Below, in pieces: positions 1 through 63,842 of a stretch of DNA of 64,000 nt (its first letter is position 1; every line of letters begins with the position of its first letter). Both the position numbers and the translations under genes were made by a program. Below the pieces are notes generated by a model. The model worked only from the letters and a program-made list of their open reading frames with translations. It ran no database searches and was not told the DNA's origin. This DNA is from a virus. The stretch covers positions 96,001 through 160,000 of the IMG/VR virus record IMGVR_UViG_3300017991_000003. One strand, 5' to 3'.

Positions 1-549
1 GACCAGGAGGCTCCGGGGGCGGAGGTTGATGTTCAGATTGGAGGCTATGCCCCGTAGCACCGGTGGACGGGACCGGGCCGCGTGGACGGCGAAGGCGATT
101 GAGGCTAGCCGGTGGTTGTTGTCGGCCGCAGACGGTGTGGTGGTGGCGGGGTTGTGCTTGCGGAGCGGGTCCGTGTCGGGGACCGGGTCGGGCAGCACCA
201 GGGGACCTACGCCGTTTTTGGCCAATCGGTGGTAAAGGCTTAGAGCTGCCAAAGCCCCGAGTCCCATAGCCGGCAGCAATGCGCGGTTGGAGACTCGAGC
301 GGGGCGTGGTGCGTCGACTGAGTCGGTCGACCACCAGGCGGACAGCCCTTCACGAACGGGCCCTTCATAGAGGGGCCACGTCTTCGTCAAGGCATCAATG
401 ACGGGGACGTACATTCAGATCCGGATAGGGAGGTGGAGATGTGTTCGTGTCGGCAAACAGTGGCTCACAGGACTCATGCCATGTCTGTTAGGTCTTTTCA
501 TGCGGGCCCCCAGGCGCTATCCTGAGCCTGTCAACAACTGGAGACGACC

Positions 550-8500: not shown

Positions 8501-8981
8501 TGACGTGGCGGCAGCTGGTGGTGGGCAGGCCACGCCTTTCGAGTGGGCGCATCGGACGTTCCTCAAACGAGAGGCCACGAGCTTGGGGCAGTTCCTCGAG
8601 GATCACAAGCTCGAGCTCGTGACGCAGTTTGCCGACCGACCCACCACCAAGGAGTTCTATCAGATGCGTCCGGTCTCAGGATCGCAGACGACAACCGGAG
8701 CTGGGCTGGTATTCGACGATAGCCTCTTCAGTAAGCTGGTGGATGAGAAGAAGATGACCAACCCTGCATCCACTGTGGTTAGTGATGTTCTTGAGCAGGT
8801 TCTTCCTGGACCCTTCAACGCGGTGGCCGCCTCCGCGGTAGACGCGGCTTCAAGCGATCCATTGATCCAGGAGGCTCGAGAGCAGGCCACCAACAAGTAC
8901 CTGACCACTCAAGCACGGCAGGAGTTGATCCTGTCCTATGCCCGCAAGCACTTCGGCGACCGAGGTTTCGATGGCACGTGA
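5502..8981 (+). CDS. very large hypothetical protein (1159 aa); possible structural protein
   Basis: ORF track; 3.5-kb uninterrupted frame; no catalytic motif recognised. Confidence 0.65.
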   Translation: MTAETRAGLLASQWKIFLDGVEVPHHGFSMVMSQDQVSEVMLSLEPDKILLELRPQTMVHIFAKDRFPDPAPGQEDEEGGVQFAKTYTSDEDELKDTWHLFWEGVAAGRTHQKSKGNRSIQVRARALVESLERTPAFMMGMGGIEYSSIASGSRLPATVAGVIEGGGPSSVDTLSLFTLADLFTNDGETGSDVPGRDSATPRFAERLIRLITYLSSYNGVLRQHVVRGRLLNKIASIPDSILEGILERSVGLSLLGDMQNRITSRSSVLDIIRQVMSYGFYHLVQVPMPYRPSKQPEMGSMIPTLTGKQDEEQATAHQIPYEYYRNDYVFVPETYYALPPPCNFVFPDEMADLSIGREFQSEPTRHLVQDPHLASFVGNFFYWLAPEDIIRKAREGAGDDVTSANLFAMASTFGRSINVSGATSPYAYPDSADLESGSVRSLLGAVSDLELEKGIVPSFGQNRFEALAAAAYLSRTIPRTEDQATAQSIEDFANPENAAYADLMAAVANYQLQLMRYRRQGQVSMLGHRWIIPGLPTIIFDSDISYFGQVVSTTFVVNSDGQESTTLQLDRTRPVPKMEIEEIRAALEGLSTKLQELQTQKSKVADQALGQTISSALSGPLASQTTQYGGLGAKIEQTQSALQNWNTYIGGDTVDLVTTTGAPIQETLTIEGTQFDGTGLTTYFQDLSTEAAEIQAGLDELLVDGAAVAKALNTGEIAVGGSAFSTTLTKGDQTIYAAGNVSPAYLAYLFLDVPVLVDTTGQITAAKAALGDGFSVSGLKSALGSIVNGGASSDVFTGGEAPNTVAGALAVLTVAATYYELATAAIVEWLTIQKDIADSGENLDFLDLPPSTQAAADQSYKDQYQTIVDTLTNEIIEDGQKVLEDFDTRLDWPAPPAFFSEDLIATEKLDDLYQTSFGCKPFYTGPYTATATNETVAAIRASLTELDLGELETESGLSMQDRLEYYLEYLSGVSALNNVYPILEGQEELTDDVAPPPSWHDVAAAGGGQATPFEWAHRTFLKREATSLGQFLEDHKLELVTQFADRPTTKEFYQMRPVSGSQTTTGAGLVFDDSLFSKLVDEKKMTNPASTVVSDVLEQVLPGPFNAVAASAVDAASSDPLIQEAREQATNKYLTTQARQELILSYARKHFGDRGFDGT

Positions 8982-9711
8982 TACGACTGATCGGCCGAGT
9001 AAGGCCATCCGAGACGCCCGGAAGGATACCGATCTAGGTCTGGTAGAGCGGGCGCAGAAGGGCGACAAGGAGGCGCTGAACCGGCTGATCCGTAGCCACA
9101 TGGATCTGATCCAGATGAAGGCCCGCGGGTTCCGTAACGCCCCCATCCCAATCGCGGCGATCGAGGGTGAGGGTATGCGGCTTCTGGCTTTGGCGGTTAC
9201 CAAGTTCGACCCGTCCCAGGGTGTGGCCTTCCGCACGTTCCTCGACAACTACCTGCGCGGGCTCTACCGCTACGTCAACAGCAACAAGCGCGTGGACCGG
9301 GCGCCGGAGCACAGGCACCTGCGCTTCCACCGGTACGAGGCGGTCAAGGGCCTCCTGCGGGTGGAGCATAGTCGAGAGCCCACGGTGGCCGAGCTCTCCG
9401 ATGCGTTGGGCTGGAGCCCTACGGATGTGAAGCAGATGGACCGGATGATGTCCCAGCGTAGCCTGGCGGGCAGCGGCCTCGAGAACGTCAAGGCACTGGA
9501 CCAAGCGCACAGCCGGTACCAGGAGTCGGTTGAGCTGGCGTACGCGGGGTGGACCAAGCAGCAGCAGGCTGTCTACGATCTCAGCATGGGCGCGCACGGT
9601 AAGCAGCGCCTATCATCTGTGCCGGCCATCGCCCGCACCCTTGGGATCACGGCCGACAAGGTCTACAAGATCAAGCGGGAGCTGGCCCAGGAGCTTGGTA
9701 GTTCCCTATGA
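8971..9711 (+). CDS. sigma-70 family RNA polymerase sigma factor (phage-encoded)
   Basis: internal ATG at 8971 (GAGG 8 nt upstream) preferred over ORF-track start 8938; region-2-like LVERAQKGDKEALNRLIRSHMDLI...GMRLLALAVTKFDPSQGVAFRTFLDNYLRG and region-4-like HTH VPAIARTLGITADKVYKIKRELAQEL. Confidence 0.65.
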   Translation: MARDTTDRPSKAIRDARKDTDLGLVERAQKGDKEALNRLIRSHMDLIQMKARGFRNAPIPIAAIEGEGMRLLALAVTKFDPSQGVAFRTFLDNYLRGLYRYVNSNKRVDRAPEHRHLRFHRYEAVKGLLRVEHSREPTVAELSDALGWSPTDVKQMDRMMSQRSLAGSGLENVKALDQAHSRYQESVELAYAGWTKQQQAVYDLSMGAHGKQRLSSVPAIARTLGITADKVYKIKRELAQELGSSL

Positions 9712-10252: not shown

Positions 10253-10302
10253 GACTATGTCGGGTGAGGGTGGTGGTTGGGGTATACACTCCCCAGTCAC
10301 CA

Positions 10303-10313
10303 TACTCATGCCC
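10303..10313 (-). promoter_or_regulatory. promoter-like motif copy (plus strand ATACTCATGCC)
   Basis: variant of the recurring GGACTYATGMC motif; 51 bp upstream of ATG 10252. Confidence 0.4.
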
Positions 10314-12348: not shown

Positions 12349-12396
12349 GGTGGTTGTGGGTGGTTGAGGCTCCTGTGAGCCAAATCGGGGTTCAGG

Positions 12397-12407
12397 GGAC
12401 TCATGAC
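12397..12407 (-). promoter_or_regulatory. promoter-like motif copy (GGACTCATGAC)
   Basis: 49 bp upstream of ATG 12348. Confidence 0.5.
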
Positions 12408-12528
12408 TGATTTCACCAGGAATGTAGGAGAGGCTTGCAGGCCGGGCCCACTTCGGCCTATGCTTGACATGTCGCCACTGTGACGACACTTCTGGGCCGC
12501 GGCCCACAACCCAAGAAAGAGCAAGCAC

Positions 12529-19352: not shown

Positions 19353-19421
19353 GATGGGTGTTGATGTTGGGTGGTGCAGCGGATCTAGCCCCGTCTGGGC
19401 TGGAAAGATCCCCCGCTCACC

Positions 19422-19432
19422 AGACTCTTGCC
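19422..19432 (-). promoter_or_regulatory. promoter-like motif copy, variant (AGACTCTTGCC)
   Basis: 70 bp upstream of ATG 19352. Confidence 0.35.
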
Positions 19433-20918: not shown

Positions 20919-20957
20919 GGGTGGTGTGATGGTGGTGGGGTGAAACGGATCGTCACC

Positions 20958-20968
20958 CTACTTATGCC
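20958..20968 (-). promoter_or_regulatory. promoter-like motif copy (CTACTTATGCC)
   Basis: 40 bp upstream of ATG 20918. Confidence 0.5.
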
Positions 20969-21935: not shown

Positions 21936-21968
21936 GGTGGTTGTAGGGGGTAAAGGGGGCGCGTCACT

Positions 21969-21979
21969 GGACTTATGAC
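21969..21979 (-). promoter_or_regulatory. promoter-like motif copy (GGACTTATGAC)
   Basis: 34 bp upstream of ATG 21935. Confidence 0.5.
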
Positions 21980-24896: not shown

Positions 24897-24908
24897 GGTC
24901 ATGAGTCC
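24897..24908 (+). promoter_or_regulatory. promoter-like motif copy in plus orientation (GGTCATGAGTCC)
   Basis: same core CATGAGTCC on the coding strand, about 95 bp upstream of exonuclease ATG 25001. Confidence 0.4.
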
Positions 24909-25000
24909 TATGAGGCCACCGGTGTTGATCACATCCCTAGGCCACACCCGAACTAGGTGAGAGCCGGCTCCTGCCGGCCCTTCTGTTTTTGGAACCAAGC

Positions 25001-31305: not shown

Positions 31306-31335
31306 GGTGTCTCCGGAGTAGACATCTCCGGATCA
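31306..31335 (-). promoter_or_regulatory. conserved 5' leader element with hairpin (stem TCCGGA/TCCGGA, loop GTAGACATC)
   Basis: aligns with the 46202 and 47869 copies; stem differs by a compensatory pair of substitutions. Confidence 0.55.
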
Positions 31336-31337
31336 CT

Positions 31338-31348
31338 AAACACATGCC
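31338..31348 (-). promoter_or_regulatory. promoter-like motif copy, variant (AAACACATGCC)
   Basis: 52 bp upstream of ATG 31286. Confidence 0.4.
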
Positions 31349-36357: not shown

Positions 36358-36389
36358 GGGTAGGTGGTGGGGTAGAGGTGATCGACATG

Positions 36390-36400
36390 AGACTTATGCC
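36390..36400 (-). promoter_or_regulatory. promoter-like motif copy (AGACTTATGCC)
   Basis: 33 bp upstream of ATG 36357; terminator of the tRNA unit lies just beyond. Confidence 0.5.
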
Positions 36401-39024: not shown

Positions 39025-39109
39025 GGCGTCTCCTGTTGGGTTGGGTGGGAACAGTGGAGGCTCGAAGCCTCGGGGTATCAGTAGACTCGTGACACAAACC
39101 CGATAAGGT

Positions 39110-39541: not shown

Positions 39542-39543
39542 GT

Positions 39544-39566: not shown

Positions 39567-39625
39567 GGTGGGAAAACTGTCTCCATATCTTGACAGAGGG
39601 GCGCCGGCTAGGCACGATCCCTGGC

Positions 39626-40141: not shown

Positions 40142-40776
40142 GAATCGGCCGCACTTCCGATCTAGCGCCCTGGCCGCTCTTCATCGGCTTCTACACCCCG
40201 GAGTACGAGGAAGAGGCCGGGGAGCTTCGTAAGACCCTGGACGCGTTCGGGCTGCCACACGAGATCGAACCCGTCGAGTCCACGGGTAGCTGGTGGCTCA
40301 ACACGCAGATCAAGGCTCAGATCATTTTGCTCAAGCTACGGGATCACCTGGGTCGACCGCTGGTCTACCTGGACTGCGATGCCCGAGTCAGGCAGGCTCC
40401 TACCTTGTTCCGCTCCCTGCATCACCAGTGCGACTTCGCGGCTCACTTCCGACCGGATCGACGATTCGAATGCGGTCGAGAGCTTTTGAGCGGGACGCTG
40501 TACTTCAGCGGCTCGCCGGCTTGCCAGGGCCTGGTACAGGCTTGGATCGATGAGAATGAGCGCCAGGCTGCGATCAAGAGTAGCAACAAGCTCCGCCTCA
40601 TGGATCAGAGAACCTTGCAGACGGTCCTGGCTAAGGAGATCGAGGAGTACGGTCTTATGTTCACCGAGCTCCCTGCTACCTACGTTCAGATCTTCGACAT
40701 CATGCGCGACGCCGGCGACCCGGTGATCGAGCATCTCCAGGCCAGCCGCCGATTGAGGAACAAGGTTGGTCACTAG
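40138..40776 (+). CDS. hypothetical protein, possible glycosyltransferase-like
   Basis: GTG start in GTGA overlap; YLDCDARV acidic motif; assignment weak. Confidence 0.4.
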   Translation: MRIGRTSDLAPWPLFIGFYTPEYEEEAGELRKTLDAFGLPHEIEPVESTGSWWLNTQIKAQIILLKLRDHLGRPLVYLDCDARVRQAPTLFRSLHHQCDFAAHFRPDRRFECGRELLSGTLYFSGSPACQGLVQAWIDENERQAAIKSSNKLRLMDQRTLQTVLAKEIEEYGLMFTELPATYVQIFDIMRDAGDPVIEHLQASRRLRNKVGH

Positions 40777-40788
40777 ACTCATGACTCA

Positions 40789-41547: not shown

Positions 41548-41551
41548 CCCC

Positions 41552-46201: not shown

Positions 46202-46243
46202 GTTGGGTGGTGAGGGTGTCTCCGGGTAGACATCCCCGGATCA
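46202..46243 (-). promoter_or_regulatory. 42-bp leader cassette GTTGGGTGGTGAGGGTGTCTCCGGGTAGACATCCCCGGATCA with hairpin
   Basis: identical over 42 bp to 47869-47910; abuts start codon. Confidence 0.6.
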
Positions 46244-46245
46244 TT

Positions 46246-46256
46246 AGACTTATGCC
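46246..46256 (-). promoter_or_regulatory. promoter-like motif copy (AGACTTATGCC)
   Basis: 48 bp upstream of ATG 46198. Confidence 0.5.
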
Positions 46257-47868: not shown

Positions 47869-47910
47869 GTTGGGTGGTGAGGGTGTCTCCGGGTAGACAT
47901 CCCCGGATCA
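47869..47910 (-). promoter_or_regulatory. 42-bp leader cassette, second identical copy
   Basis: identical to 46202-46243. Confidence 0.6.
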
Positions 47911-47912
47911 AA

Positions 47913-47923
47913 GGACTCATGAC
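47913..47923 (-). promoter_or_regulatory. promoter-like motif copy (GGACTCATGAC)
   Basis: 45 bp upstream of ATG 47868. Confidence 0.5.
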
Positions 47924-48050: not shown

Positions 48051-48320
48051 ATGGACGCCGCCACTCTGTTCGAATCCCAGCTCCGCGAGAGCCTGGAGCG
48101 CCACAACACCCCCTCCATCATGGACAAGATCGCCGCTTTCCACGCGGAGCAGGGCGATCTCGTCGAAGACGTTGTTGAGGAGCTCCCCCTGGAAGACCGA
48201 CTCGCCAAGGTCGCTGAGGCCATCTCTGCTCGCCTGAACAGCGAGCCCGAGGAGCCCGAGGAGCCCGGGGAGGTCGAGGAGACCCCCGAGCAGAGCCTGC
48301 TCGAGCGCCTCCGCGGCTAG
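48051..48320 (+). CDS. hypothetical acidic protein (89 aa)
   Basis: ORF track; ATG 48051. Confidence 0.45.
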   Translation: MDAATLFESQLRESLERHNTPSIMDKIAAFHAEQGDLVEDVVEELPLEDRLAKVAEAISARLNSEPEEPEEPGEVEETPEQSLLERLRG

Positions 48321-48324
48321 ACCG

Positions 48325-48729
48325 GTGGATCTGGGGGTCGTTCAGGTCTCTGATCAAGTCCTGACCCCGGGCCTGGGGGACGCTCCGGTCCGGGTGTCAG
48401 GTCTTCGTGCCCTCGTACAGCAGGCGGTCATCGAGCTCATCTCGAACCCCCTGCCGGAGCGAGGGCGCGGGGCTGGGCTAGCTCAGCTCGTTGCAGCCCT
48501 GCCTCCCCAGAACCAGGCACAAGCTCGTGGCACCTTTGCGCAGGCCGTGAGCTCCGCCAAGACGCACATCTTGGCCAACCAGCGCTACGCTTCCAACCTC
48601 ACCGCGAACGAGCGGCTGCAAGACATGACCCTGCTTCGGGCCGAGCTCAATGGGCTCGTCTGGGAGATCGACATCAGGATCACCAACGTAGCCGGCGAGT
48701 CCGCCACCTTTGCCCTGCCGGTCAGCTGA
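48325..48729 (+). CDS. hypothetical protein (134 aa)
   Basis: ORF track; apparent GTG start. Confidence 0.4.
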   Translation: MDLGVVQVSDQVLTPGLGDAPVRVSGLRALVQQAVIELISNPLPERGRGAGLAQLVAALPPQNQAQARGTFAQAVSSAKTHILANQRYASNLTANERLQDMTLLRAELNGLVWEIDIRITNVAGESATFALPVS

Positions 48730-49796: not shown

Positions 49797-49805
49797 GGAT
49801 TAGAG

Positions 49806-52800
49806 ATGGCTGAGTTCAAGGACTGCCAGAGCCCGAGCCCCCTGACCGGGCGGATCGGCCCCGATCTGATCGAAGAGGTTGGCGGGGTCTCTCTGGCAGG
49901 TGTGTTGGCAGGCACGGAGACGCTGCCGGTTGGTGCAATCCCTGTCACAGCCCCGCTTTATGACAGTCCGAGCCCTACAGGTACGGCTATTGGACTGCGG
50001 TTGGATTCGAGCCTGACGGTTGATGCCCAGGGCCGGCTCAGTATTGCTGGAGCCCCATCGCCCGCGGCCCACGCCTCGAGCCACGAGCCTGGCGGGTCTG
50101 ATCCGATCACCCCTGCTGCCTTTGACGGGCTTATCACCCCGCCGGTCGCCACGACGGTTGTCCTTGGCGGTGTCAAGGACGGTGACGGCGTCTCGATCGC
50201 CGGTGACGGCACCCTGACCCTCGATCTGGCCGCCGCCAGTGGCCTCGAGATCAGCGGCGGGACCCTGAGACTGGCACTGGGTACCGGTGTCAGCTTCAGC
50301 GGCAACGATCTGGTCCTGGACGAGGCCACGGACTCCACGCTGGGCGGCATCATCGCCGGCACGGGTCTATCAGTCAGCTCGGGTACGGCGAGCCTCAACG
50401 CCCCCCAAGTCACGGGAGCCTCCCTAGCGGGCAGCACTCTGGTCTGGGATACCAGCCCGAGTGCCCAGAGTCCCAGCCCTGCTCTGAGGCTTCCGGCGAG
50501 CTTCACGTACACCAAGGCGATCCCGCAGTCGCAGCTGCCGACCGCGGCCTACGGCAGCCCGGGCAGCTCGAGCCCCAGCCCGCAGCTCGGCCTTGTCCGC
50601 ATCTATGGCCCGAGCGAGGGCCTGACGCTTAGCGATGGGCTCCTGTCGCTGGCGACTCCGATCAGCACGGATCACCTACCCACCGCTACTGGTCTAGGTG
50701 GGCGAGGCATCGTCCGCGCGGGCCTACTTGACGGTACGGGCGTCTACGTCTCCAACAGTACGACCGGCCAGCTGGCGATCCTGATTGACGCCACGTCGGA
50801 CACGTTGGCGTTGTCGTCGAGCGGGATCAAGGTCAAGTCCAATCGCTTCCTGGCGCTGACTGGCACCGGTAACCTCCCCAGCCCCGCGGCGAGCCCGAGC
50901 CCGGGGACTGACGGCTGGATGACCGGGTCGGTTCGATTCACCAACGACCTGGGTGAGCCTGCGATCCGCACCGGTAACCAGCGGATCCGCTACGAGTTCG
51001 GGGCCAGCCCGTCTCCCGGGGCGATCCTGGCATCGGCTGATCTAAGCGATCTACTAACGTACCAGGAGATCAGCACACTCATCTCCCAGGCTGAGCTTGG
51101 TGTCGAGGTTTGGACTCCTGGGCGACCTGTGCAGGCAGAGCCGGGTACGAGCCTAGGTGCGTTGGCGGAGCTCTCGGCCGGGGATCGGTTCCTTACGAGC
51201 ACGTCGTCCAACACCAACCCCGGCGGTGACTGGAATGCGCACAACTGCGTGTTCGCGGTCTGGACGGAAACGGCTCCCGATACCTTTACCTGGGTCTATG
51301 AGACCCCCACGGTCAACACCTGGTTCACAGACGACGTAACTGGGGACACGTGGGCTGTTGTTGTCGGCTCCCCCTCCCCGAAGTCGCCCTCACCGAACCC
51401 GTCGCGAGAGGCTTTCCGGTATCGCGCTCGTCAAGATGACACAGCATCGACGGCCCGAGCTGGTCGCGTGCGTGTCCCGACGACCAGTGGCCTCGTCATG
51501 GACGGCGAGGATATTCGGCTATCCCTCGCCTCGGACATCGGGGTCAGTACGGGCCTGCGTCTGATCACCCGAGCTCGCAACAACGCGCTAGCTCTCGATC
51601 TCAGCCGGTCCCAAGGGATCTTGGAGCTCAACTCCGACGGGCGCCTTCAGGTTGCCGCGTCCTCGATCCAGGCCACGGAGATCGCGGACAACACCATCGT
51701 CCTCGACAACCTGGCCGCGGATCAGGTGACAGGCGGTACCAAAGACTTCATCGCCACGCAGTACGACGGGCTATCCGTCCGGCTGGTGGGGGACTCGGAA
51801 GACTTCCGCGTCACTGGGGCGCCTGTCAGCACGGCTACGACCATTCTGATCCACACCGAGGACGGTATCGGTGTGGCGGAGGAGTCGATCAACACTGACG
51901 CTCTCTCGGACGAGGCGGTTAGCTACAGCAAACTCCTGATGCCCACGGCCTCCGGTCTGGAGGACAACGGGCAGGACAAGGTCCGGGTCAAGCTCCAGAC
52001 CCGCAGCGGCCTCGAGCGAACGGTGGATGGCCTGGCGGTCAACATCCATGACGTGGTGGACGATGCCACGATTGAGCTCGACACATCCACGGGCGGCTTG
52101 CGCGTCAAGACAGGTAGCCTGACGTCGTCGTACTTCGCGTCGGGCCTGGCGATCTCGGCCTCGGTCCTCACGCTGGGAGCCCCTATGCTCTCGTCGAGCG
52201 GGCTCCTGACCTTCTGCTACCAGAGCCCTCTGGTCCTGACCGGCAGCCCCGGCTGCTTGACGATCGGCGAAGGCTTGATCAGCTCGCCGTATCTCGGCAC
52301 CGGGTCGGTCAGCTACGCCAAGCTCAAGCTGGCGAGCCCCTCCGGCATCACGCAGACGGCCGGCGGTATCAAGGTCGACATCTCGACGGGTCTCGCCTTC
52401 AGCGGCAACCAGATCGTGGTCGACCAGGTGCCGGCAGACGCGATGGCACTGGATGCGGATTCGGCGTTGTACGCCGCTAGCCCGACCAGTCCGCTGACGC
52501 AGCTGGAGCTGAGCATCCGGGTCAGCAGCCCGTTCACGCAGACGGGTGGTACGCTGGATCTAGCGGACGAGGGTGTTCAGGTGAGTCACCTGGATCGCTC
52601 CAAGCTGCGCGGTAGCTTCCTGGCCAGCGGCCTCGAGGCCGGCCTAGGTACCCAGACCAGTCCCTTCGACTCTTGGGTCACGAGCCCGGCGTTCTACACC
52701 GGCTCGGACGCCCCGGGTATGCGGGTGGCTACGCGGACGCGATCCGATCACGACTACCTGGATGCGGCGGGTCAGGGACAAGGCACGTTCGAGCCCTATA

Positions 52801-53594
52801 GCTTGACGCTGCTTCAACTTGGTGGCACGCCCTCGGGCAGCGACTACCAGAACCGACTGGCCCCGACGCTCAACAGCATCGGTCTTCCGCACCTAGCCCT
52901 CGGCAACGAGACCCTGGCCCCCACGGACTCCGATCGGCTGCCGACTGGTTTCGGTAGCTACAAGGCGCTGGTCCAGAGCGGGAAGCTGCCCACGAGCCCG
53001 GTGACGAGCCGCGGCTGGGCAGTGGCTAACCTGTCGGAGAACATCCCAGCTGTCCGAGTCGGTCCGGGCCTCAGCATCACGGCTGCGGGCTTCGTGGTTC
53101 CGAGCGATGTCCAGGCGGATCAGATCCTCCTGGGCACCACGTCTCGCGAGACCAGTCCGCGCGGGGTCTCGAGTCTTGCGCTTGTGCGTGACGGGGGATT
53201 GAGCAGCCCGGTCACGGATGGGGCGCTGGCGCTCGGCTACGACGTATCGGACTTCGAGGTCACCTCGGCGCTTGGCCTTGGCCGACGTCAGGCGTACCAA
53301 GAGGAGTACACGGGCGCCTCGGTTCCCGCAGCGGCGAGCGGGTACTACACCTTCGCTCTGACGCTGGGGAGCTCGCAAGGCCTTGTGCCCGGCACGGTGT
53401 CGGTCCACGTCAACGGCCTACGTCTCGAAAGCCCCTTCTTCAGCTACACCAGCCCCTCGATCACCTCGAAGGAGGTGTACCTCAACGAGTCGGCAAGCCC
53501 TGGCCCCAACCTGGCCTACACGTTGAGCCAGTCTACTAGCCCGGACGTTCTTGACCGGGTTGTCATTCGCTATCGAACCCGTCCGACCTCATGA
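49806..53594 (+). CDS. giant S/T/G/P-rich fibre-like protein (1262 aa); putative tail fibre or adhesin
   Basis: ATG 49806; recurrent SPSP motifs; Gly/Ser/Thr-rich repeats. Confidence 0.6.
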   Translation: MAEFKDCQSPSPLTGRIGPDLIEEVGGVSLAGVLAGTETLPVGAIPVTAPLYDSPSPTGTAIGLRLDSSLTVDAQGRLSIAGAPSPAAHASSHEPGGSDPITPAAFDGLITPPVATTVVLGGVKDGDGVSIAGDGTLTLDLAAASGLEISGGTLRLALGTGVSFSGNDLVLDEATDSTLGGIIAGTGLSVSSGTASLNAPQVTGASLAGSTLVWDTSPSAQSPSPALRLPASFTYTKAIPQSQLPTAAYGSPGSSSPSPQLGLVRIYGPSEGLTLSDGLLSLATPISTDHLPTATGLGGRGIVRAGLLDGTGVYVSNSTTGQLAILIDATSDTLALSSSGIKVKSNRFLALTGTGNLPSPAASPSPGTDGWMTGSVRFTNDLGEPAIRTGNQRIRYEFGASPSPGAILASADLSDLLTYQEISTLISQAELGVEVWTPGRPVQAEPGTSLGALAELSAGDRFLTSTSSNTNPGGDWNAHNCVFAVWTETAPDTFTWVYETPTVNTWFTDDVTGDTWAVVVGSPSPKSPSPNPSREAFRYRARQDDTASTARAGRVRVPTTSGLVMDGEDIRLSLASDIGVSTGLRLITRARNNALALDLSRSQGILELNSDGRLQVAASSIQATEIADNTIVLDNLAADQVTGGTKDFIATQYDGLSVRLVGDSEDFRVTGAPVSTATTILIHTEDGIGVAEESINTDALSDEAVSYSKLLMPTASGLEDNGQDKVRVKLQTRSGLERTVDGLAVNIHDVVDDATIELDTSTGGLRVKTGSLTSSYFASGLAISASVLTLGAPMLSSSGLLTFCYQSPLVLTGSPGCLTIGEGLISSPYLGTGSVSYAKLKLASPSGITQTAGGIKVDISTGLAFSGNQIVVDQVPADAMALDADSALYAASPTSPLTQLELSIRVSSPFTQTGGTLDLADEGVQVSHLDRSKLRGSFLASGLEAGLGTQTSPFDSWVTSPAFYTGSDAPGMRVATRTRSDHDYLDAAGQGQGTFEPYSLTLLQLGGTPSGSDYQNRLAPTLNSIGLPHLALGNETLAPTDSDRLPTGFGSYKALVQSGKLPTSPVTSRGWAVANLSENIPAVRVGPGLSITAAGFVVPSDVQADQILLGTTSRETSPRGVSSLALVRDGGLSSPVTDGALALGYDVSDFEVTSALGLGRRQAYQEEYTGASVPAAASGYYTFALTLGSSQGLVPGTVSVHVNGLRLESPFFSYTSPSITSKEVYLNESASPGPNLAYTLSQSTSPDVLDRVVIRYRTRPTS

Positions 53595-54130
53595 CTCTCA
53601 AGCGCGTCACTTGGGTAGGTGATCGTCACCGCCCCCGTCCTCGCTACCGCGGTTTCCGTCGCGGCGTCCCTCAGCTAGTGACCAAAGAGGTTGCTGATCT
53701 CATGATTCGGGATCACGGTCCTGATGTGATCGTGGCTGATCGACTAACTAAGGTGGCTGAGCATGTGGGCGTTGATGTCGAGCGTCGCGAGTTTGAGCAG
53801 ACTACCCGCGGCGAGGGCGATGAGCGTCCGCGGTGGCGCGGTCCTGAGGCTAACGCTCCCGCGTACCGAGGCACCCCATCGCACCGGATCAACTTCTCGT
53901 GGTCGGCTCGAGGAGCTACCTTTCGGCCTGTGCAATACCGAGTGTACCGCGGGACAAGCCTGGATAACCTCCAGCTCCTGACCACGCAGGACGCTGACTC
54001 AGCTCGAGTGAGCGTTGATACCACAGTCGCGGGCCGCACGACGTACTACTACGGTGTGTCCTATGTCGACAACCGCGGCTTCGAGAGCGAGATCACGATC
54101 GCTGGATCAGCCACCACACCCACTTTCTGA
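53591..54130 (+). CDS. hypothetical protein (179 aa), tandem paralogue A
   Basis: shares KRV(T/S)W(V/F)GDR, VVAD...VAEH(V/I)G...(E/D)R(R/K)EF, Y(R/Q)(V/L)YRGT and Y(Y/I)Y(G/S)V(S/T)Y with the next ORF. Confidence 0.5.
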   Translation: MTLKRVTWVGDRHRPRPRYRGFRRGVPQLVTKEVADLMIRDHGPDVIVADRLTKVAEHVGVDVERREFEQTTRGEGDERPRWRGPEANAPAYRGTPSHRINFSWSARGATFRPVQYRVYRGTSLDNLQLLTTQDADSARVSVDTTVAGRTTYYYGVSYVDNRGFESEITIAGSATTPTF

Positions 54131-54149
54131 CCTCTAACCCCACAGACTC

Positions 54150-54692
54150 ATGACGACCTCTATTCGAAAGCGGGTGAGCTGGTTCGGTGACCGGACCACG
54201 CGCATCCCCAAGCATCGCGGGCTTCACCCGAGCGGTACTCCGACGGAGATGCCTGAAGATGATGCCAACGACCTGATCCGAGACTATCCCAGTCACCTCG
54301 TGGTGGCTGACCCGATCACGTTGGTTGCGGAGCACATCGGTGAAGAGGTGGACCGGAAGGAGTTCTACGACGCTGGATACCGCTCCTACGGTACGCAGCC
54401 TGTGAAGTGGAAAGGCCCTGCGGTGACCTCGGTCACGCCGACGGCCAGCCCGGCTACGTCGCCTACGATCGTGTGGGACGCGATGCCCGCTCGGTTTGCT
54501 CCTCAGAGCTATCAGCTGTACCGAGGTACCGCGGCAGCGCCGAAAACGACGCTGGTGGGCTCGACTACCCTCCTGACGCTCAGCGAGGCCCCGCCGGCTC
54601 AAGGCACCTACATCTACAGCGTGACCTACACGGATCCCCACGGGTATGAGAGCGACGTCGGTACGTCGGTGTCTCACTACTCGTCTCCGTGA
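54150..54692 (+). CDS. hypothetical protein (180 aa), tandem paralogue B
   Basis: see paralogue A. Confidence 0.5.
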   Translation: MTTSIRKRVSWFGDRTTRIPKHRGLHPSGTPTEMPEDDANDLIRDYPSHLVVADPITLVAEHIGEEVDRKEFYDAGYRSYGTQPVKWKGPAVTSVTPTASPATSPTIVWDAMPARFAPQSYQLYRGTAAAPKTTLVGSTTLLTLSEAPPAQGTYIYSVTYTDPHGYESDVGTSVSHYSSP

Positions 54693-54715
54693 TACGATCC
54701 CACTAACGACACGTC

Positions 54716-55738
54716 ATGGTCCACATCAAACAGGTTCGTGGGGTCCCCAGCTATCTGAGCTTGGCGACCCCGCTCACCCCGCAGGGTGACACGGTGACCC
54801 AGGTCATCACTGGGCAGAAGACGTGGACCACGAGCGCGAGCACTAACGACCGTAGCGCGCTGGCCGCTAGTGTCCCCGGACGCTTCGACTCGAACGGTAC
54901 GGACGAGGCTGCTGCGGCGTTGTTCGGGGCCTCAAGCGGTATCTTCCGCTCGACGCTCGGGTTCTGGGGTAACAGCGAGGCCAATGGCATGCTGTCCTGG
55001 GCGCCGATCGCCACCCCGGTCAATCAGGACTTCGGCCGGTTCATGATCACCAACAGCCGCACGGCTACTGGTGATGCTTGGGACCCCGCGACTAATGGTG
55101 GTGCGGATACCGGCGTCAGCGGCTTGGTGCAGTACTACGCGGAGTTCCCGGCGCTGCGGCAGTCCGTGCCTGTGGCTTCGCCATCTGACTACGCAGATGA
55201 GACGGGGCTACCGGCGCCTCCTCTTACTTTCGGCCACCTCAAGCTGTTCGCTCGTCAGGGCAACCCAGCCTACGGGTATGAGGCAAGCCCTGGGCGGGAG
55301 TTCGGGCTTAGCTACCTGTCCTACAGCGTTCCTTCGGGATCGATCGAAGAAGACATCGCGACATATCAGCGCGCTGATGTGCGGTACGGGGCGGCTCAGG
55401 TATCGCACATCCATGTGGACACGTGGAGCCCGTCGACCACGATCTACCCCTTCGTGGCTCCGGGAGACGTTCGCATCACGCAGCTTGCTCTCATCGGGTC
55501 AGCAACCGTAGCCACATCTACCCTATCTGGCTACAACCACGCGCAGGTGAGTCCGGGCTACCTCTTCTCCGCAAGCCCTGTGTCGGCTATTGGCGCCGGC
55601 TCCCCGGTGAGCTACTCGCCTGATCAGTACCGAACGATGGCCCAGGGGGATTGGCTCAGCCTTAGCTGGGCCGGCTCCTCGAGCCCCCTCACCAACCTGA
55701 CGATCAGCGTCTCCTATAACCCCATCTATCCGAGCTGA
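54716..55738 (+). CDS. hypothetical protein (340 aa), S/T/G-rich
   Basis: ORF track; ATG 54716. Confidence 0.5.
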   Translation: MVHIKQVRGVPSYLSLATPLTPQGDTVTQVITGQKTWTTSASTNDRSALAASVPGRFDSNGTDEAAAALFGASSGIFRSTLGFWGNSEANGMLSWAPIATPVNQDFGRFMITNSRTATGDAWDPATNGGADTGVSGLVQYYAEFPALRQSVPVASPSDYADETGLPAPPLTFGHLKLFARQGNPAYGYEASPGREFGLSYLSYSVPSGSIEEDIATYQRADVRYGAAQVSHIHVDTWSPSTTIYPFVAPGDVRITQLALIGSATVATSTLSGYNHAQVSPGYLFSASPVSAIGAGSPVSYSPDQYRTMAQGDWLSLSWAGSSSPLTNLTISVSYNPIYPS

Positions 55739-55740
55739 CT

Positions 55741-58029
55741 ATGTCGAAGAACCCCCTGAACCTGGGTAAGCACGCGGCACACTACGGTCAGATCGAAATG
55801 ATCGACGGGGCCTACCTGCTGAAAGGCACCGCCACCACGTACATGGTCCTGTACGGTGCCGGCACTGCGCTGGATCGGGGTCAGGTGACTGTGCTGGACG
55901 CTATTTCCGGTTACGCAGTGATCGACCGAGCTCTGGTAGGGGTACGCGGGGCTGGTAAGCTCAAGCCCGCAGCGCCGGTCGCGGCGATAAGCCATGAGGT
56001 CAAGGTGAGCGCTAAAGGCCCCATCCTGTCGACCTTGTATGAGGATGTCATTGACGGCATCACCCGCCGCCGGGAGCACGCCTACTGGGTTGAGGGTAAC
56101 TGCGTGCATGTGCTGATCTCTCAGCAGGGCGCGGGATCAACCGAGTATGAGTCCAACTACTCAGGGGTCTACGGCGGTCGCTTTGATGATGAGCTCGCCG
56201 CGGATCTGGTGGAGATGACGGGCACGCTGACGGTCCCCACTGTGTCGGCGATGATCAAGGAGTCGGGAGAGCCCGAGAAGCCGCGGTTCTTCTCGCACAT
56301 GATGGACCTTGGCTGGTCACACGCTTCGGCGTTTGATCTGCCTAACCCAGCTGTGGTCGAGGATCCACACGCCTGGACGTACTCTACTGCGGGTAAGTAC
56401 AAGAAGAACACCGCTGGAGCCCTGCAAGGGCCTCTTCAAGAGATGCTGCTGGGGTCCGCGTCGTATGACATCGTCGACTGCTTGGTCCACCCAGCACAGT
56501 CCGCTCCCCGTATTCCCAAGCGATCACTACAGCCTTGGACGCTCTTGACCAGTCGCGGCGAGTCGTGGGATCACTTCGAGAAGTACCTCGAGTGGCGTGC
56601 GGAGATGGGTATGACCAGTGGGGTGATCTACCCCATGTTCTGGTGGCAGGAGATCAACTACCCTCCGAGCGTGGTTCAGGCCAACGGCCAGCACTGGTAT
56701 CCCGCCGGCGATCACGAGGGTTTCGCCAGCTTCTGCGCTATGGCCCGTGCGCTTGGCTTCGACGTCGGCGGCTACACCTTGTGGGGCATTCAGAAGGAGA
56801 CTGTCCCTAACTACAACCCAGGTGATCGGGTACTCGAGAGCAGCGGTGCCCCGCGCCCGTCGGTGTGGGAGTCCAATGTGTGGCTTAGTCGGGAAGAGCA
56901 GACGCAGAAGTACATGGACCTGTACCTGCCTAAGCTTCGAGATGAGTACCACTGGAGCATGATCTTCTACGACGTGGAGACCTACGCAGATCCCACGCAC
57001 GGCAACGGGGATCACGTGGACATGACGGCCGGCAGCCTGTGCGGAACGCTGGCTGGCTGCATCGCTGCGCGTCGAGAATGGATGCAGTACGGACAGGACG
57101 TCCTAGGCCCGGACGCGTTTGCTCATGGCGAAGGTAGTCGAGGCGGCTACCTAAATGATCAGGAGTACCTGTGGGCCGGTGTGATGACTGGCTTGAACAA
57201 GTCGATCAACACCAACAGCGGTAAGGAGGAGATCCAGACCACCGACCCTGATCGCACGATGCTCAGCTGGCCTATGGCTCTTGAGTACGTGTGGGCCGTG
57301 GAGAACCAGGTGTTCGCTCATACGCCTAACTTCCCAGGACGCACCTTCTCCCCCAACGACGCGAGTCTCCAAGACCCCGGAGTCGGCGGCCTCTTCCCAT
57401 TCAGTGTGAAGATGGTGGATGCGCTACGAGCTGTGAACTTGATGCACGGCCGTATGGGTGCTCTTCCGATCAATGGACAAGGGCACGAGGCTTTCCTGTC
57501 AAAGCGCGAGCAGGTCAAGGAGTACTACATCGCCTCGGCGATCTCAGCCTTCACGCGTGACCTCAGCGTCCCCACGATCCACTACCACAGCGACGAGCAC
57601 GGCTATGAGACCTTCTCGCAGCGCTACGCTCGTACAGGTCTAGACGGCTTCCGCCGTACACGTGTACGCCTGGTCTTCGAGTCAGGTCTCGAGGTCTATG
57701 TGAGCCTGGACAAGCAGCCGTGGGTTCTGCCTGACCGGTTTGGTGTGACGATCGAGGAGTTCGGCTACTTCTGCTTTGGGTCGGTCAACAACACGCTGGT
57801 GGTGGGCGGTAGTTGCTCCGCTCCCGTCACAGGCAACAAGCGGGTTGACTTCGTCATGATCCCCGGCGTGCTCACGGCGGTGGATGGTCGCGGTGAGGTG
57901 ACGAACTTCCTCGGCATGCCCGTGCCCGGAGGCCGGCTAGTGGTGCGCGACTACAAGAGGCAGTTCGTGATCAATGAGGGCACTGACGGGGTGCTGCACA
58001 AGTCGCTGACTACCTCGCACGGGTTCTAG
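55741..58029 (+). CDS. large hypothetical protein (762 aa); possibly tail-associated enzyme
   Basis: ORF track; W/Y-rich central region; functional guess from context only. Confidence 0.6.
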   Translation: MSKNPLNLGKHAAHYGQIEMIDGAYLLKGTATTYMVLYGAGTALDRGQVTVLDAISGYAVIDRALVGVRGAGKLKPAAPVAAISHEVKVSAKGPILSTLYEDVIDGITRRREHAYWVEGNCVHVLISQQGAGSTEYESNYSGVYGGRFDDELAADLVEMTGTLTVPTVSAMIKESGEPEKPRFFSHMMDLGWSHASAFDLPNPAVVEDPHAWTYSTAGKYKKNTAGALQGPLQEMLLGSASYDIVDCLVHPAQSAPRIPKRSLQPWTLLTSRGESWDHFEKYLEWRAEMGMTSGVIYPMFWWQEINYPPSVVQANGQHWYPAGDHEGFASFCAMARALGFDVGGYTLWGIQKETVPNYNPGDRVLESSGAPRPSVWESNVWLSREEQTQKYMDLYLPKLRDEYHWSMIFYDVETYADPTHGNGDHVDMTAGSLCGTLAGCIAARREWMQYGQDVLGPDAFAHGEGSRGGYLNDQEYLWAGVMTGLNKSINTNSGKEEIQTTDPDRTMLSWPMALEYVWAVENQVFAHTPNFPGRTFSPNDASLQDPGVGGLFPFSVKMVDALRAVNLMHGRMGALPINGQGHEAFLSKREQVKEYYIASAISAFTRDLSVPTIHYHSDEHGYETFSQRYARTGLDGFRRTRVRLVFESGLEVYVSLDKQPWVLPDRFGVTIEEFGYFCFGSVNNTLVVGGSCSAPVTGNKRVDFVMIPGVLTAVDGRGEVTNFLGMPVPGGRLVVRDYKRQFVINEGTDGVLHKSLTTSHGF

Positions 58030-63757: not shown

Positions 63758-63791
63758 TGTTCGGTCCGTGGTAAGAGAAACAGGCGTCAGT

Positions 63792-63802
63792 GGACTTATG
63801 CC
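63792..63802 (-). promoter_or_regulatory. promoter-like motif copy (GGACTTATGCC)
   Basis: 35 bp upstream of ATG 63757. Confidence 0.5.
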
Positions 63803-63819: not shown

Positions 63820-63842
63820 CTGGCACTGGTACCTAGTGTCAG
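63820..63842. repeat. palindromic element copy 6 (CTGGCACT-GGTACCT-AGTGTCAG)
   Basis: overlaps stop of the HTH gene 63839-63988 and abuts the promoter-like motif of the next gene. Confidence 0.8.

What the first reader, a model, noticed from the sequence alone, without database searches (positions are those of the whole stretch)
63792..63802. Recurrent promoter-like motif G(G/T)CAT(A/G)AGTC 33-70 bp upstream of at least 10 start codons
Plus-strand GGACTYATGMC or close variants occur at 10303, 12397, 19422, 20958, 21969, 31338, 36390, 46246, 47913 and 63792, always upstream of a minus-strand first gene, plus one plus-oriented copy at 24897 upstream of the exonuclease gene. It does not match TTGACA/TATAAT well. 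A phage-encoded sigma factor (8971-9711) is the obvious candidate recogniser. The leaders between the motif and the ATG are C/A-rich and mostly lack a Shine-Dalgarno sequence.
Basis: partly seen in the sequence, partly recalled or inferred. Interest (0 to 1): 0.6.

Follow-up and report, generated by a model that had tools for sequence, protein, structure and literature searches.

The report
Phage-specific promoter motif, non-canonical -10
A 17-20 base signal repeated in front of about a dozen small gene units of an uncultivated large phage is almost certainly a phage-specific promoter, most likely read by the sigma factor the phage itself encodes; this is a new example of a well-known way in which phages time their genes.

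Summary
In gene orientation the motif is C-M-A(a)(a)-N15-(T)G-K-C-A-T-R-A-G-T-C-Y-N2-3-T-G-A. The strict 11-mer occurs 6 times against 0.16 expected. A 17-nt matrix gives 15 hits of at least 14 bits against 0.75 expected. Thirteen sites lie in intergenic DNA 29-89 nt upstream of a same-strand first gene, and four form complete promoter-gene-terminator units.

The motif recurs at equivalent places in four related metagenomic phage lineages (sigma identity 76-44%, GC 55-62%) while the flanking sequence has diverged. It is asymmetric, bipartite and at a variable distance from the start codon, so it behaves as a promoter, not as an operator or a translation signal.

It cannot be aligned to TATAAT with both A-11 and T-7 kept. 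Separate candidate sigma-70-like promoters (for example TTGCAG-N18-TATGCT) sit before other operons, including the operon that holds the phage sigma gene. That gene encodes a three-domain sigma with altered -10 recognition residues, conserved together with the motif.

That the phage sigma reads the motif is the best inference (about 0.6) but is not shown. The C-rich, G-poor leaders without a Shine-Dalgarno sequence are confirmed. This is a new member of a known kind, of moderate interest.

The parts
464..480 (-). Motif site GGCATGAGTCCTGTGAG. The -35-like block TGAAA is at 496-500. Heads a minus-strand operon (200-aa ORF, then a reverse transcriptase and further genes).
   Evidence: conserved in lineage B
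10296..10312 (-). Motif site GGCATGAGTATGGTGAC, followed by a 72-aa ORF with a lipoprotein-like N-terminus read by eye (10034-10252) and a terminator at 10017-9994.
12391..12407 (-). Motif site GTCATGAGTCCCCTGAA, heading the operon that starts at 12348.
   Evidence: orthologous sites in lineages B, C and D
19416..19432 (-). Motif site GGCAAGAGTCTGGTGAG, followed by gene 18981-19352 and a terminator at 18964-18935.
20952..20968 (-). Motif site GGCATAAGTAGGGTGAC, followed by gene 20430-20918 and a terminator at 20385-20354.
21963..21979 (-). Motif site GTCATAAGTCCAGTGAC, followed by gene 21642-21935. It lies in a 46-bp divergent gap.
24898..24914 (+). The only plus-strand site, GTCATGAGTCCTATGAG. 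It heads the exonuclease operon (24989/25001 to 30778). A candidate TTGACA-N17-GAGACT lies 11 nt upstream of it.
   Evidence: orthologous plus-strand sites L021 12289 and L023 13101
31332..31348 (-). Motif site GGCATGTGTTTAGTGAT, then a 5' hairpin at 31313-31331, gene 30945-31286 and a terminator at 30913-30896.
36384..36400 (-). Motif site GGCATAAGTCTCATGTC, followed by gene 35818-36357.
39077..39093 (-). Motif site GTCACGAGTCTACTGAT (18.3 bits), followed by a gene that then starts at 39024.
40769..40785 (-). Near-perfect motif GTCATGAGTCTAGTGAC (25.7 bits) without the -35-like block. It is antisense between plus-strand genes 40111-40776 and 40789-41547. Candidate antisense promoter; unexplained.
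46240..46256 (-). Motif site GGCATAAGTCTAATGAT, then a 5' hairpin at 46222-46239 and gene 45854-46198.
47907..47923 (-). Motif site GTCATGAGTCCTTTGAT, then a 5' hairpin at 47889-47906 and gene 47476-47868.
63786..63802 (-).
8938..9711 (+). Phage sigma-70-family protein (257 aa from ATG 8938, or 246 aa from ATG 8971). It is the candidate recogniser and the second-to-last gene of plus-strand operon 550-10019.
   Evidence: Pfam Sigma70_r3; phrog_351; PDB sequence hits to sigmaS, sigmaF, sigma32 and sigmaA; Foldseek full-length matches to sigma factors; conserved in every motif-bearing lineage
12435..12464 (+). Candidate sigma-70-like promoter of a second class, TTGCAG-N18-TATGCT, before plus-strand operon 12529-18039. 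TTGC and TATGCT are invariant in lineages A, B and D while the spacer differs.
495..523 (+). Candidate sigma-70-like promoter TTTTCA-N17-TATCCT before plus-strand operon 550-10019, which contains the sigma gene. It stands back to back with motif site 464 and shares the A/T tract.

Best explanation
The motif is the core of a class of phage-specific promoters.

Host core RNA polymerase, carrying the phage's own sigma-70-family factor (8938/8971-9711), binds a bipartite site. The site has a short upstream block (C-M-A, about -34 to -32) and, 15 nt further on, a long composite -10 region (T/G-G-K-C-A-T-R-A-G-T-C). Transcription starts at the conserved T-G-A about 6-7 nt downstream.

In the register that puts the start at the G of TGA:
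- T/G-15 and G-14 look like an extended -10 element.
- CATRAG occupies -12 to -7.
- A-11 is kept, but the normally essential T-7 is an invariant G.

The transcripts are mostly short units: one to a few small genes of unknown function, a reverse-transcriptase operon and the exonuclease/replication operon. Several end at intrinsic terminators. In this phage they carry G-poor, C/A-rich leaders with no Shine-Dalgarno sequence.

The sigma gene sits in an operon behind a candidate canonical-looking promoter. The likely order is therefore: host sigma first, then the phage sigma, then the motif-driven genes.

Shown here: the motif, its placement, its bipartite form, its conservation, and the sigma fold. 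Inferred: the start site, the identity of the sigma that reads it, and the temporal order.
For: Enrichment:
- Searches show enrichment far above chance.
- All 13 gene-proximal sites are intergenic and point at the next start codon.

Bipartite form:
- The second block sits at a fixed distance: C at -20 in 23 of 30 sites and A at -18 in 25 of 30 sites.

Transcription units:
- Four promoter-gene-terminator units are seen.

Conservation:
- A matrix built only from the window finds 17 further sites in lineages B, C, D and L019.
- Checked against the called genes, at least 14 of these lie upstream of a same-strand called gene.
- In alignments the motif is conserved while the flanks diverge.

The sigma factor:
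- The phage protein is a full sigma2-sigma3-sigma4 factor.
- The positions that align with the WW and RQ residues of sigma-70 region 2.3/2.4 are N-Y and R-G with a one-residue deletion. These are conserved across the clade.

A separate, canonical-looking promoter class:
- TTGCAG-N18-TATGCT, conserved in three lineages.
- TTTTCA-N17-TATCCT before the sigma operon.
- TTGACA-N17-TATCTT just beyond the window.

No phage polymerase seen:
- No RNA polymerase family was found among the ten largest ORFs.
- No DxDGD catalytic motif (which includes DFDGD) occurs in the six frames of the window.

Precedent:
- Promoters for a phage-encoded sigma were inferred in the same way for phage 7-11 and matched to the experimentally established phiEco32 consensus (PMC4331800).
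Against: - There are no transcription start or expression data, and the host is unknown.
- Co-occurrence of sigma and motif is equally expected if related phages simply share related hosts.
- Motif-driven genes look like early or middle genes (small ORFans, nucleotide metabolism, replication). Early genes are usually read by the host sigma.
- The sigma gene lies at the end of an operon whose neighbours in lineage C carry SASA and Laminin_G_3 domains, which I read as tail-fibre-like. That would be odd for an early operon.
- The second, canonical-looking class rests on a handful of sites. The loose pattern TTGNNN-N16-18-TANNNT is not enriched in intergenic DNA.
- Only 64 kb plus about 18 kb of a genome of at least 130-190 kb was seen. 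Another sigma or polymerase could be encoded elsewhere.
Confidence: 0.6

Rival explanations
1. The motif is a promoter, but it is read by a host sigma factor. That could be the primary sigma helped by a phage co-factor (in the manner of T4 MotA/AsiA sigma appropriation), or a host alternative sigma of the group 3 kind. The phage sigma would then serve another, unseen promoter class such as late structural genes.
For: - The motif-driven genes look like early or middle genes: small ORFans, thymidylate-synthase and exonuclease neighbourhoods, and defence-related domains in relatives.
- From my own knowledge, known phage sigmas often drive late genes.
- The motif loosely resembles composite -10 regions of group 3 sigmas. 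It shares ATAA with the sigma28 element GCCGATAA and CAT with the sigmaG element CATnnTA (again my own knowledge).
- No motif was found before the large plus-strand operon 48051-58029, nor in 17.8 kb of flanking sequence.
Against: - In no register does the motif keep both A-11 and T-7.
- G at the -7 position of register 1 is invariant in 30 of 30 sites.
- Candidate canonical TAnnnT promoters exist beside it.
- The motif persists in phages with GC content from 55 to 63% and sigma identity down to 44%, always together with the phage sigma.
- No homologue of this sigma clade was found in 185,579 species genomes; the best match was 33% identical over a fragment.
Confidence: 0.2
2. The motif is the binding site of a phage DNA-binding regulator (a repressor or activator) that overlaps otherwise unremarkable promoters. 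This would resemble the asymmetric 13-bp 'stoperators' of cluster A mycobacteriophages.
For: - The site is asymmetric, occurs in many copies and has a fixed orientation relative to transcription.
- HTH_3/CI-like genes occur in this phage and in its relatives.
- The copy at 40769 lies inside a transcribed plus-strand operon.
Against: - A second conserved block lies at a fixed 15-nt distance, and a conserved TGA lies 3 nt downstream. Both are typical of promoter geometry.
- No other promoter-like sequence is visible in gaps as short as 46-85 bp.
- Sites occur only at the heads of units, apart from 40769. They are not spread along operons.
Confidence: 0.1
3. The motif acts at the RNA level, as a 5'-UTR processing, stability or translation-enhancer element that compensates for the missing Shine-Dalgarno sequence.
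For: - The leaders lack a Shine-Dalgarno sequence.
- Several leaders carry a conserved stem-loop just after the motif.
Against: - The distance to the start codon varies from about 30 to about 90 nt here, and is about 235 nt at the orthologous L021 12289 site.
- Relatives with normal GGAGG sites keep the motif.
- Conservation extends upstream to a block 34 nt before the presumed start, which is hard to reconcile with an RNA element.
- The motif has no structure of its own.
Confidence: 0.05
4. The motif is the promoter of a phage-encoded RNA polymerase, either single-subunit or a divergent multisubunit enzyme, encoded outside the window or by one of the unannotated large ORFs.
For: - There is a continuous conserved block of about 19 nt that includes the presumed start site. 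From my own knowledge, T7-like promoters have this form.
- Large ORFs (1159, 1262, 803 and 762 aa, and a 3406-aa ORF just outside the window) have no family assignment.
Against: - No RNA polymerase family hit was found, and no DxDGD motif occurs in the window.
- The phage carries a sigma factor, which implies use of the host core enzyme.
- The bipartite form with a -35-like block is not typical of single-subunit polymerase promoters.
Confidence: 0.05

Closest known systems
Promoters of the phage-encoded sigma factors of coliphage phiEco32 (gp36) and Salmonella phage 7-11
   Same: - A lytic phage encodes its own sigma-70-family factor.
- A short, well conserved, low-copy motif in intergenic regions differs from the host consensus and marks a temporal class.
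- Host-type promoters coexist with it.
- In 7-11 the motif was found from sequence alone and checked against the phiEco32 consensus (PMC4331800).
- Salmonella phage Arash, annotated with an RNA polymerase sigma factor, is among the best phage-database hits of the sigma protein, at 29% identity.
   Different: - The motif sequence is unrelated: TG-TGATGT-TATA in 7-11, against GKCATRAGTC here.
- Here there is also an upstream block at a fixed distance, and the presumed start site is conserved.
- The sigma proteins are only distantly related.
- In 7-11 and phiEco32 the long motifs drive structural genes. Here they drive small units of unknown function and the replication operon.
Composite -10 promoters of group 3 alternative sigmas (sigma28/FliA TAAA-N15-GCCGATAA; Bacillus sigmaF/sigmaG with CAT-containing -10 elements; sigma32 CCCCATnT). 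The consensus sequences are recalled from my own knowledge.
   Same: - A short -35 block, a spacer of about 15 nt, and a long -10 region with conserved bases upstream of the hexamer.
- The protein is about 245 aa with regions 2, 3 and 4 and no region 1.1, like group 3 sigmas.
- The FliA/WhiG, SigB/F/G and RpoH models are among the best, though far below their cut-offs.
   Different: - There is no match to any of these consensus sequences beyond 4-6 bases.
- The sigma scores far below every subfamily cut-off (for example 40 bits against 190 for FliA/WhiG).
- It forms a clade of its own, found only in phage contigs.
Extended -10 (TGn) sigma-70 promoters
   Same: If transcription starts at the G of TGA, then T/G-15 and G-14 precede the hexamer and A-11 is kept. 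Domain 3, whose region 3.0 reads the TG element in sigma-70 (my own knowledge), is the best conserved Pfam domain in the protein.
   Different: The hexamer is CATRAG, with C-12 and an invariant G-7 in place of T-12 and T-7. T at -15 is present in only 16 of 30 sites.
Stoperators of cluster A mycobacteriophages and start-associated sequences of cluster K (recalled from my own knowledge)
   Same: Short, asymmetric, oriented repeats in intergenic DNA of a phage with high GC content.
   Different: - Stoperators are spread along operons and bind the repressor.
- Start-associated sequences abut the start codon.
- Here the sites head transcription units, lie 29-89 nt from the start codon, and have promoter geometry.

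Membership tests
Sigma-70-family-dependent bacterial promoter | Two conserved blocks (-35 and -10) at a fixed spacing, on one strand, upstream of and pointing at genes | tested here: met
   The C-20/A-18 block and the GKCATRAGTC block keep a constant register in 30 sites. All gene-proximal sites in the window are intergenic and correctly oriented.
Sigma-70-family-dependent bacterial promoter | A -10 hexamer of the TATAAT type with A-11 and T-7, and a -35 element of the TTGACA type (primary sigma consensus) | tested here: not met
   The tool's consensus scan finds none at the sites. CATRAG keeps A-11 but has G-7. The alternative register ATRAGT keeps T-7 but has T at -11.
Sigma-70-family-dependent bacterial promoter | Transcription starts 5-9 nt downstream of the -10 element | not testable with these tools
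   No transcript data are available. The only hint is the conserved T-G-A 4-6 nt after AGTC.
Promoter class of a phage-encoded sigma factor (phiEco32/7-11, SPO1, T4 late type) | The phage encodes a sigma-70-family protein able to bind core polymerase and DNA | tested here: met
   Sigma70_r3 is above its Pfam cut-off. phrog_351 matches at 9e-19. PDB sequence hits are to sigmaS, sigmaF, sigma32 and sigmaA. The AlphaFold model (mean pLDDT 77) matches sigma chains over about 230-270 alignment columns with probability 1.0. Core binding itself was not tested.
Promoter class of a phage-encoded sigma factor (phiEco32/7-11, SPO1, T4 late type) | The motif differs from host-type promoters that coexist in the same genome | tested here: inconclusive
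   Candidate host-type promoters are TTGCAG-N18-TATGCT (invariant in 3 lineages), TTTTCA-N17-TATCCT and TTGACA-N17-TATCTT. They are few, and the loose pattern is not enriched in intergenic DNA. The host is unknown.
Promoter class of a phage-encoded sigma factor (phiEco32/7-11, SPO1, T4 late type) | The motif and the sigma factor are conserved together among relatives | tested here: met
   Lineages B, C, D and L019 (sigma identity 76, 55, about 75 and 44%) all carry the motif. Contigs with sigmas of 33% identity or less do not. This is correlation only.
Promoter class of a phage-encoded sigma factor (phiEco32/7-11, SPO1, T4 late type) | Initiation at the motif depends on the phage sigma | not testable with these tools
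   This needs in vitro transcription or genetics.
Operator or stoperator (regulator binding site) | Dyad symmetry (operator), or copies spread within transcribed operons (stoperator) | tested here: not met
   The A variant GGCATAAGTC has no dyad, and only TCATGA in the G variant is palindromic (read directly from the sequence). Thirteen of 14 strong sites head transcription units.
Translation initiation signal (Shine-Dalgarno or start-associated sequence) | A fixed short distance to the start codon | tested here: not met
   The distance from the presumed start to the start codon is 29-66 nt on the minus strand and 77-89 nt for the plus-strand copy. It is about 235 nt at L021 12289.
Promoter of a phage-encoded RNA polymerase | An RNA polymerase gene in the phage | tested here: inconclusive
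   None was found in the window. More than half of the genome was not seen, and several large ORFs are unassigned.

The most novel reading that the evidence does not exclude
The phage sigma has a changed -10 reading chemistry. It accepts an invariant G where sigma-70-family factors insert T-7 into a pocket, and the tryptophan pair of region 2.3 is replaced by N-Y.

In addition, the transcripts it makes carry G-depleted leaders that resemble the anti-Shine-Dalgarno sequence itself (CACCTCC and CCACC runs). Transcription and Shine-Dalgarno-independent translation of one gene class would then be coupled as a takeover strategy in this lineage.
Probability: 0.25. Interest if true: 0.65.

Novelty: new member of a known kind. 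Interest (0 to 1): 0.45.

Why it matters
If confirmed, the motif gives the recognition sequence of a sigma-factor clade known so far only from metagenomic phage contigs. The largest contigs are 130-193 kb, and no cultured relative was found in the phage, plasmid-free genome or species-genome collections searched.

It would let the genes of these phages be sorted into temporal classes from sequence alone.

It would add a natural example of a sigma-70-family -10 element without the canonical T-7, which is useful for understanding and engineering promoter specificity.

The C-rich, G-poor leaders without a Shine-Dalgarno sequence behind a single promoter class are a small, testable case of Shine-Dalgarno-independent initiation.

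It is not a new principle. Phage-encoded sigmas with their own promoters have been known since SPO1 and T4.

Tried and rejected
- Nucleotide search of 12 kb of the window against 50,697 phage records found no match. A protein search with the 803-aa ORF also found none. With the sigma protein the best hits were only 24-29% identical. No cultured relative is therefore available to borrow annotation from.
- Identifying the host failed. The sigma alignment against 185,579 species genomes gave only distant sigmas. Thymidylate synthase homologues carry no organism names.
- Pfam and PHROG searches of 11 motif-driven first genes gave no function; one matched a PHROG family of unknown function. The temporal class could not be fixed from function.
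- A literature search for the motif as a string returned only primers.
- A search for a template/variable repeat pair near the reverse transcriptase found nothing convincing.
- I first suspected that the reverse complement of the motif abutting start codons (18896, 21982, 40789, 54150) had a function of its own. At 18896 it is better explained as a TTGCCT-N18-TAGACT promoter of a leaderless mRNA. The other three remain unexplained.
- A GGTACC block about 30 nt upstream of some sites, and a TTGAC word before some plus-strand operons, were examined. GGTACC is confined to a subfamily. TTGAC[AG] is not enriched in intergenic DNA (6 of 57 copies).
- An ECF-type reading (AAC ... CGTC) was rejected. 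The spacing would be 24 nt, and the protein has a domain 3.
- A sigma54-like reading of TGGCAC at 2164 was rejected. It is one arm of a hairpin and the GG-GC spacing is wrong.

Full report
**1. What the window is**

The window has 62.7% GC. It is identical to the 91.6-kb IMG/VR contig IMGVR_UViG_3300018080_003942 wherever the two overlap, but it runs past the end of that contig at window position 12230. The same phage also lies on ENA contigs of 174-193 kb.

The phage collection holds no near relative at the nucleotide level. A protein search with the 803-aa ORF found nothing, and the sigma protein found only hits of 24-29% identity. Most ORFs have no Pfam or PHROG assignment.

Recognisable genes:
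- a sigma-70-family protein (8938-9711);
- two exonucleases;
- a thymidylate synthase of the Thy1 family (PHROG match here; Pfam PF02511 on the identical database protein);
- a phosphohydrolase and a DNA methyltransferase;
- a Cpn10-like protein (39626-40141);
- two tRNA-Leu genes.

Genes are arranged in many short alternating plus- and minus-strand units.

Yes.
- The strict pattern GGACTYATGMC occurs 6 times against 0.16 expected.
- A 17-nt matrix built from 12 sites scores each site at 14 bits or more even when that site is left out.
- The window holds 15 hits of at least 14 bits against 0.75 expected, and 14 hits of at least 18 bits against 0.055 expected, in first-order Markov sequence.
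- The 8-mer CATRAGTC occurs 12 times, with essentially none inside coding sequence.

- 464-480, which heads an operon of a 200-aa ORF and a reverse transcriptase;
- 39077-39093, which moves the start of the downstream gene to 39024;
- 40769-40785, a near-perfect copy that points antisense into a plus-strand operon.

About 14-15% of the window is intergenic. All 13 gene-proximal sites lie there and point at the next start codon. The leaders run 29-66 nt from the presumed start on the minus strand, and 77-89 nt for the plus-strand copy.

**3. Anatomy**

I pooled the 13 window sites with 17 sites from relatives. Read in the direction of the gene, the consensus is:

C(-20) M A(-18) a a, then 15 nt (ending t-a-T-g-t), then G1 K C A T R A G T C10, then y-n-n, then T14 G15 A16.

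- C-20 is present in 23 of 30 sites and A-18 in 25 of 30.
- G1, C3, A4, A7, G8 and T9 are nearly or fully invariant.
- No shift in spacing is needed. A Gibbs search that allowed shifts found nothing sharper.
- The site is asymmetric.

If transcription starts at G15 (a purine after a pyrimidine, 7 nt after G8):
- CATRAG occupies -12 to -7;
- T/G-15 with G-14 resembles an extended -10 element;
- CMA falls at -34 to -32.

A-11 is then kept, but -7 is an invariant G. If the start is A16, the hexamer is ATRAGT, with T-7 kept but T at -11. Either way one of the two key positions of a primary-sigma -10 element is lost.

The tool's consensus scan finds fewer sigma-70-type promoters than chance in the first 60 kb: 0, 2 and 0 found, against 3.3, 3.5 and 2.5 expected.

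**4. Evidence that it is a promoter**

- Four sites (10296, 19416, 20952, 31332) are followed by a single gene and then a strong intrinsic terminator on the same strand.
- Some gaps that hold a site are only 46-85 bp long and contain nothing else that is conserved.
- The sigma protein led to four further lineages. These are B (L002/L021, 76% identity, 57% GC), C (L005/L011, 55%, 58% GC), D (L023, 62% GC) and L019 (44%, 55% GC).
- The window-derived matrix finds 17 sites in those lineages. Checked against the called genes, at least 14 lie upstream of a same-strand gene. Several are at orthologous positions.
- In alignments the motif stands out from diverged flanks.
- Contigs whose sigma is 33% identical or less, which are AT-rich, show only isolated hits or none.
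- In 17.8 kb flanking the window in the same phage there are no further hits. That stretch is long operons with few gaps.

**5. Who reads it?**

The phage protein is a genuine sigma factor.
- Sigma70_r3 scores above its Pfam cut-off, while regions 2 and 4 are weak.
- phrog_351 matches.
- PDB sequence matches are to sigmaS, sigmaF, sigma32 and sigmaA.
- An AlphaFold model (mean pLDDT 77) matches sigma chains over its whole length.
- It belongs to no curated subfamily; every NCBIfam score is far below its cut-off.
- In region 2.3/2.4 the canonical F-S-T-Y-A-T-W-W-I-R-Q is F-R-T-F-L-D-N-Y-L-R-G. This is conserved across the clade, which fits an altered -10 specificity.

A second, canonical-looking promoter class exists.
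- TTGCAG-N18-TATGCT lies before operon 12529-18039. Both hexamers are invariant in lineages A, B and D while the spacer varies.
- TTTTCA-N17-TATCCT lies before operon 550-10019, which contains the sigma gene. In lineage B it reads TTTTCT-N17-TATGCT.
- TTGACA-N17-TATCTT lies just beyond the right end of the window.
- Weaker candidates lie at 39590, 24858 and 18903.

Together these suggest a cascade: host sigma, then phage sigma, then the motif-driven units.

This remains inference.
- The second class is small and not statistically enriched.
- The host is unknown.
- The motif-driven genes look like early or middle genes, which leaves room for a host sigma or for sigma appropriation.
- No RNA polymerase gene or DxDGD motif is present in the window, but more than half of the genome was not seen.

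**6. The leaders**

The 30 nt before the 13 motif-driven start codons are 50% C, 25% A and 12% G. Pairing with the anti-Shine-Dalgarno sequence is worse than at random positions: median +0.7 against -3.5 kcal/mol. Other genes in the window are no better than random, so the whole phage uses Shine-Dalgarno sites weakly. Several leaders contain the anti-Shine-Dalgarno sequence itself, for example GATCACCTC at 36384.

In lineages B, C and L019 the same promoters are followed by GGAGG-like sites. The host ribosome can therefore use Shine-Dalgarno sites, and the C-rich leaders are a trait of lineages A and D.

G depletion prevents secondary structure. From my own knowledge of the field, unstructured leaders allow initiation without a Shine-Dalgarno sequence, and that is the likeliest reason here.

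About nine leaders begin, 2-4 nt after the TGA, with a stem-loop CCGGRG-(A)TSTGTMTA-CYCCGG. The stem shows compensatory changes and the loop is conserved. This stem-loop belongs to a subfamily, not to the motif itself.

**7. Comparison with what is known, and verdict**

The closest precedent is the set of promoters for the phage-encoded sigma of phiEco32 and 7-11. These are also short, low-copy intergenic motifs unlike the host consensus, and they were found from sequence (PMC4331800).

In architecture the site resembles the composite -10 promoters of group 3 sigmas, but it matches none of their consensus sequences (recalled from my own knowledge).

It fails the tests for an operator, a stoperator, a start-associated translation signal and a primary-sigma promoter.

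The finding is a real feature that is new in sequence but known in kind. I put the probability that it is a promoter class at about 0.85-0.9, and that the phage sigma reads it at about 0.6.

Noticed in passing
window 1-414 (-), continued in L035 13-8863: The 464 promoter heads a long minus-strand operon: a 200-aa ORF, a 367-aa RVT_1 reverse transcriptase, ORFs of 280, 141 and 632 aa, a ThiF-domain protein and more. It may be a diversity-generating retroelement next to ORFs I read as tail-fibre-like from their SASA and Laminin_G_3 domains in lineage C. No template/variable repeat pair was found in the 12 kb searched.
   Followed up: partly
window 37004-37090 and 37165-37250 (-): Two tRNA-Leu genes (anticodons TAG and CAA) lie in a 1.7-kb stretch (36358-38121) with little coding potential. 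No motif or other promoter was recognised upstream of them.
   Followed up: partly
window 12435-12464 (+), 495-523 (+), 39590-39618 (+), 24858-24886 (+); L033 8426-8454: A second promoter class that looks sigma-70-like (TTGCAG-N18-TATGCT, TTTTCA-N17-TATCCT, TTGACA-N17-CACGAT, TTGACA-N17-GAGACT, TTGACA-N17-TATCTT). The first is invariant in three lineages. It is followed by a hairpin with compensatory changes (GTCGCC...GACGAC, GTCGCC...GGCGAC, ATCGTC...GACGAT). The site at 495-523 stands back to back with motif site 464 and shares its A/T tract.
   Followed up: partly
window 18903-18932 (-): TTGCCT-N18-TAGACT ends 6 nt before the ATG of gene 18522-18896. This makes it a candidate promoter of a leaderless mRNA. 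It also explains the isolated CATGAGTC core at 18899 on the other strand.
   Followed up: partly
window 40769-40785 (-): The second-best scoring motif copy (25.7 bits) lies between two plus-strand genes and points antisense. It lacks the upstream C-M-A block. It may be an antisense promoter; nothing tested.
   Followed up: partly
window 21975-21984, 40781-40791, 54150-54152 (+): Three plus-strand genes (21982, 40789, 54150) start 0-4 nt from the 5' edge of a motif copy on the other strand. Their start regions therefore read RGACTYATGAC(N0-3)ATG. At 40781 a three-codon mini-ORF (ATG ACT CAA TGA) overlaps the real start. Unexplained.
   Followed up: no
window 31313-31331, 46222-46239, 47889-47906 (-); also L021 near 7538 and L023 near 9137, 18911, 19068: A conserved stem-loop lies at the very 5' end of a subset of motif-driven leaders (CCGGRG-ATSTGTMTA-CYCCGG). 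The loop sequence is conserved and the stem varies in a compensating way. It may be a stability element or a protein-binding element.
   Followed up: partly
window 19453-19460, 31369-31376, 63823-63828; L021 and L023 equivalents: A GGTACC(T)(A/G)AAA block lies about 27-35 nt upstream of some motif sites, often right after the terminator of the preceding unit (TTTTAGCTGGTACCTGAAAC). It is a conserved terminator-promoter junction, or possibly an UP-like element.
   Followed up: no
window 2164-2186 (+); also 30866, 47077, 50271, 63820: A perfect 10-bp inverted repeat, CTGGCACTGG-GTG-CCAGTGCCAG, lies just before gene 2193. The 10-mer CCAGTGCCAG or its complement recurs six times in the window.
   Followed up: no
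window 39626-40141 (+): A Cpn10 (GroES)-like ORF (Pfam PF00166, E = 2.8e-06) heads plus-strand operon 39626-44646. My own codon-score gene caller missed it; it lies inside listed ORF 39344-40141.
   Followed up: yes
window 12230: The IMG/VR and JGI contig of this phage ends at window position 12230, yet the window continues without a break. Longer ENA assemblies (174-193 kb) carry the same sequence, so the genome is much larger than the 91.6-kb record.
   Followed up: partly
L033 1-6340: Just beyond the right end of the window the same phage encodes a 3406-aa ORF with no family assignment.
   Followed up: no
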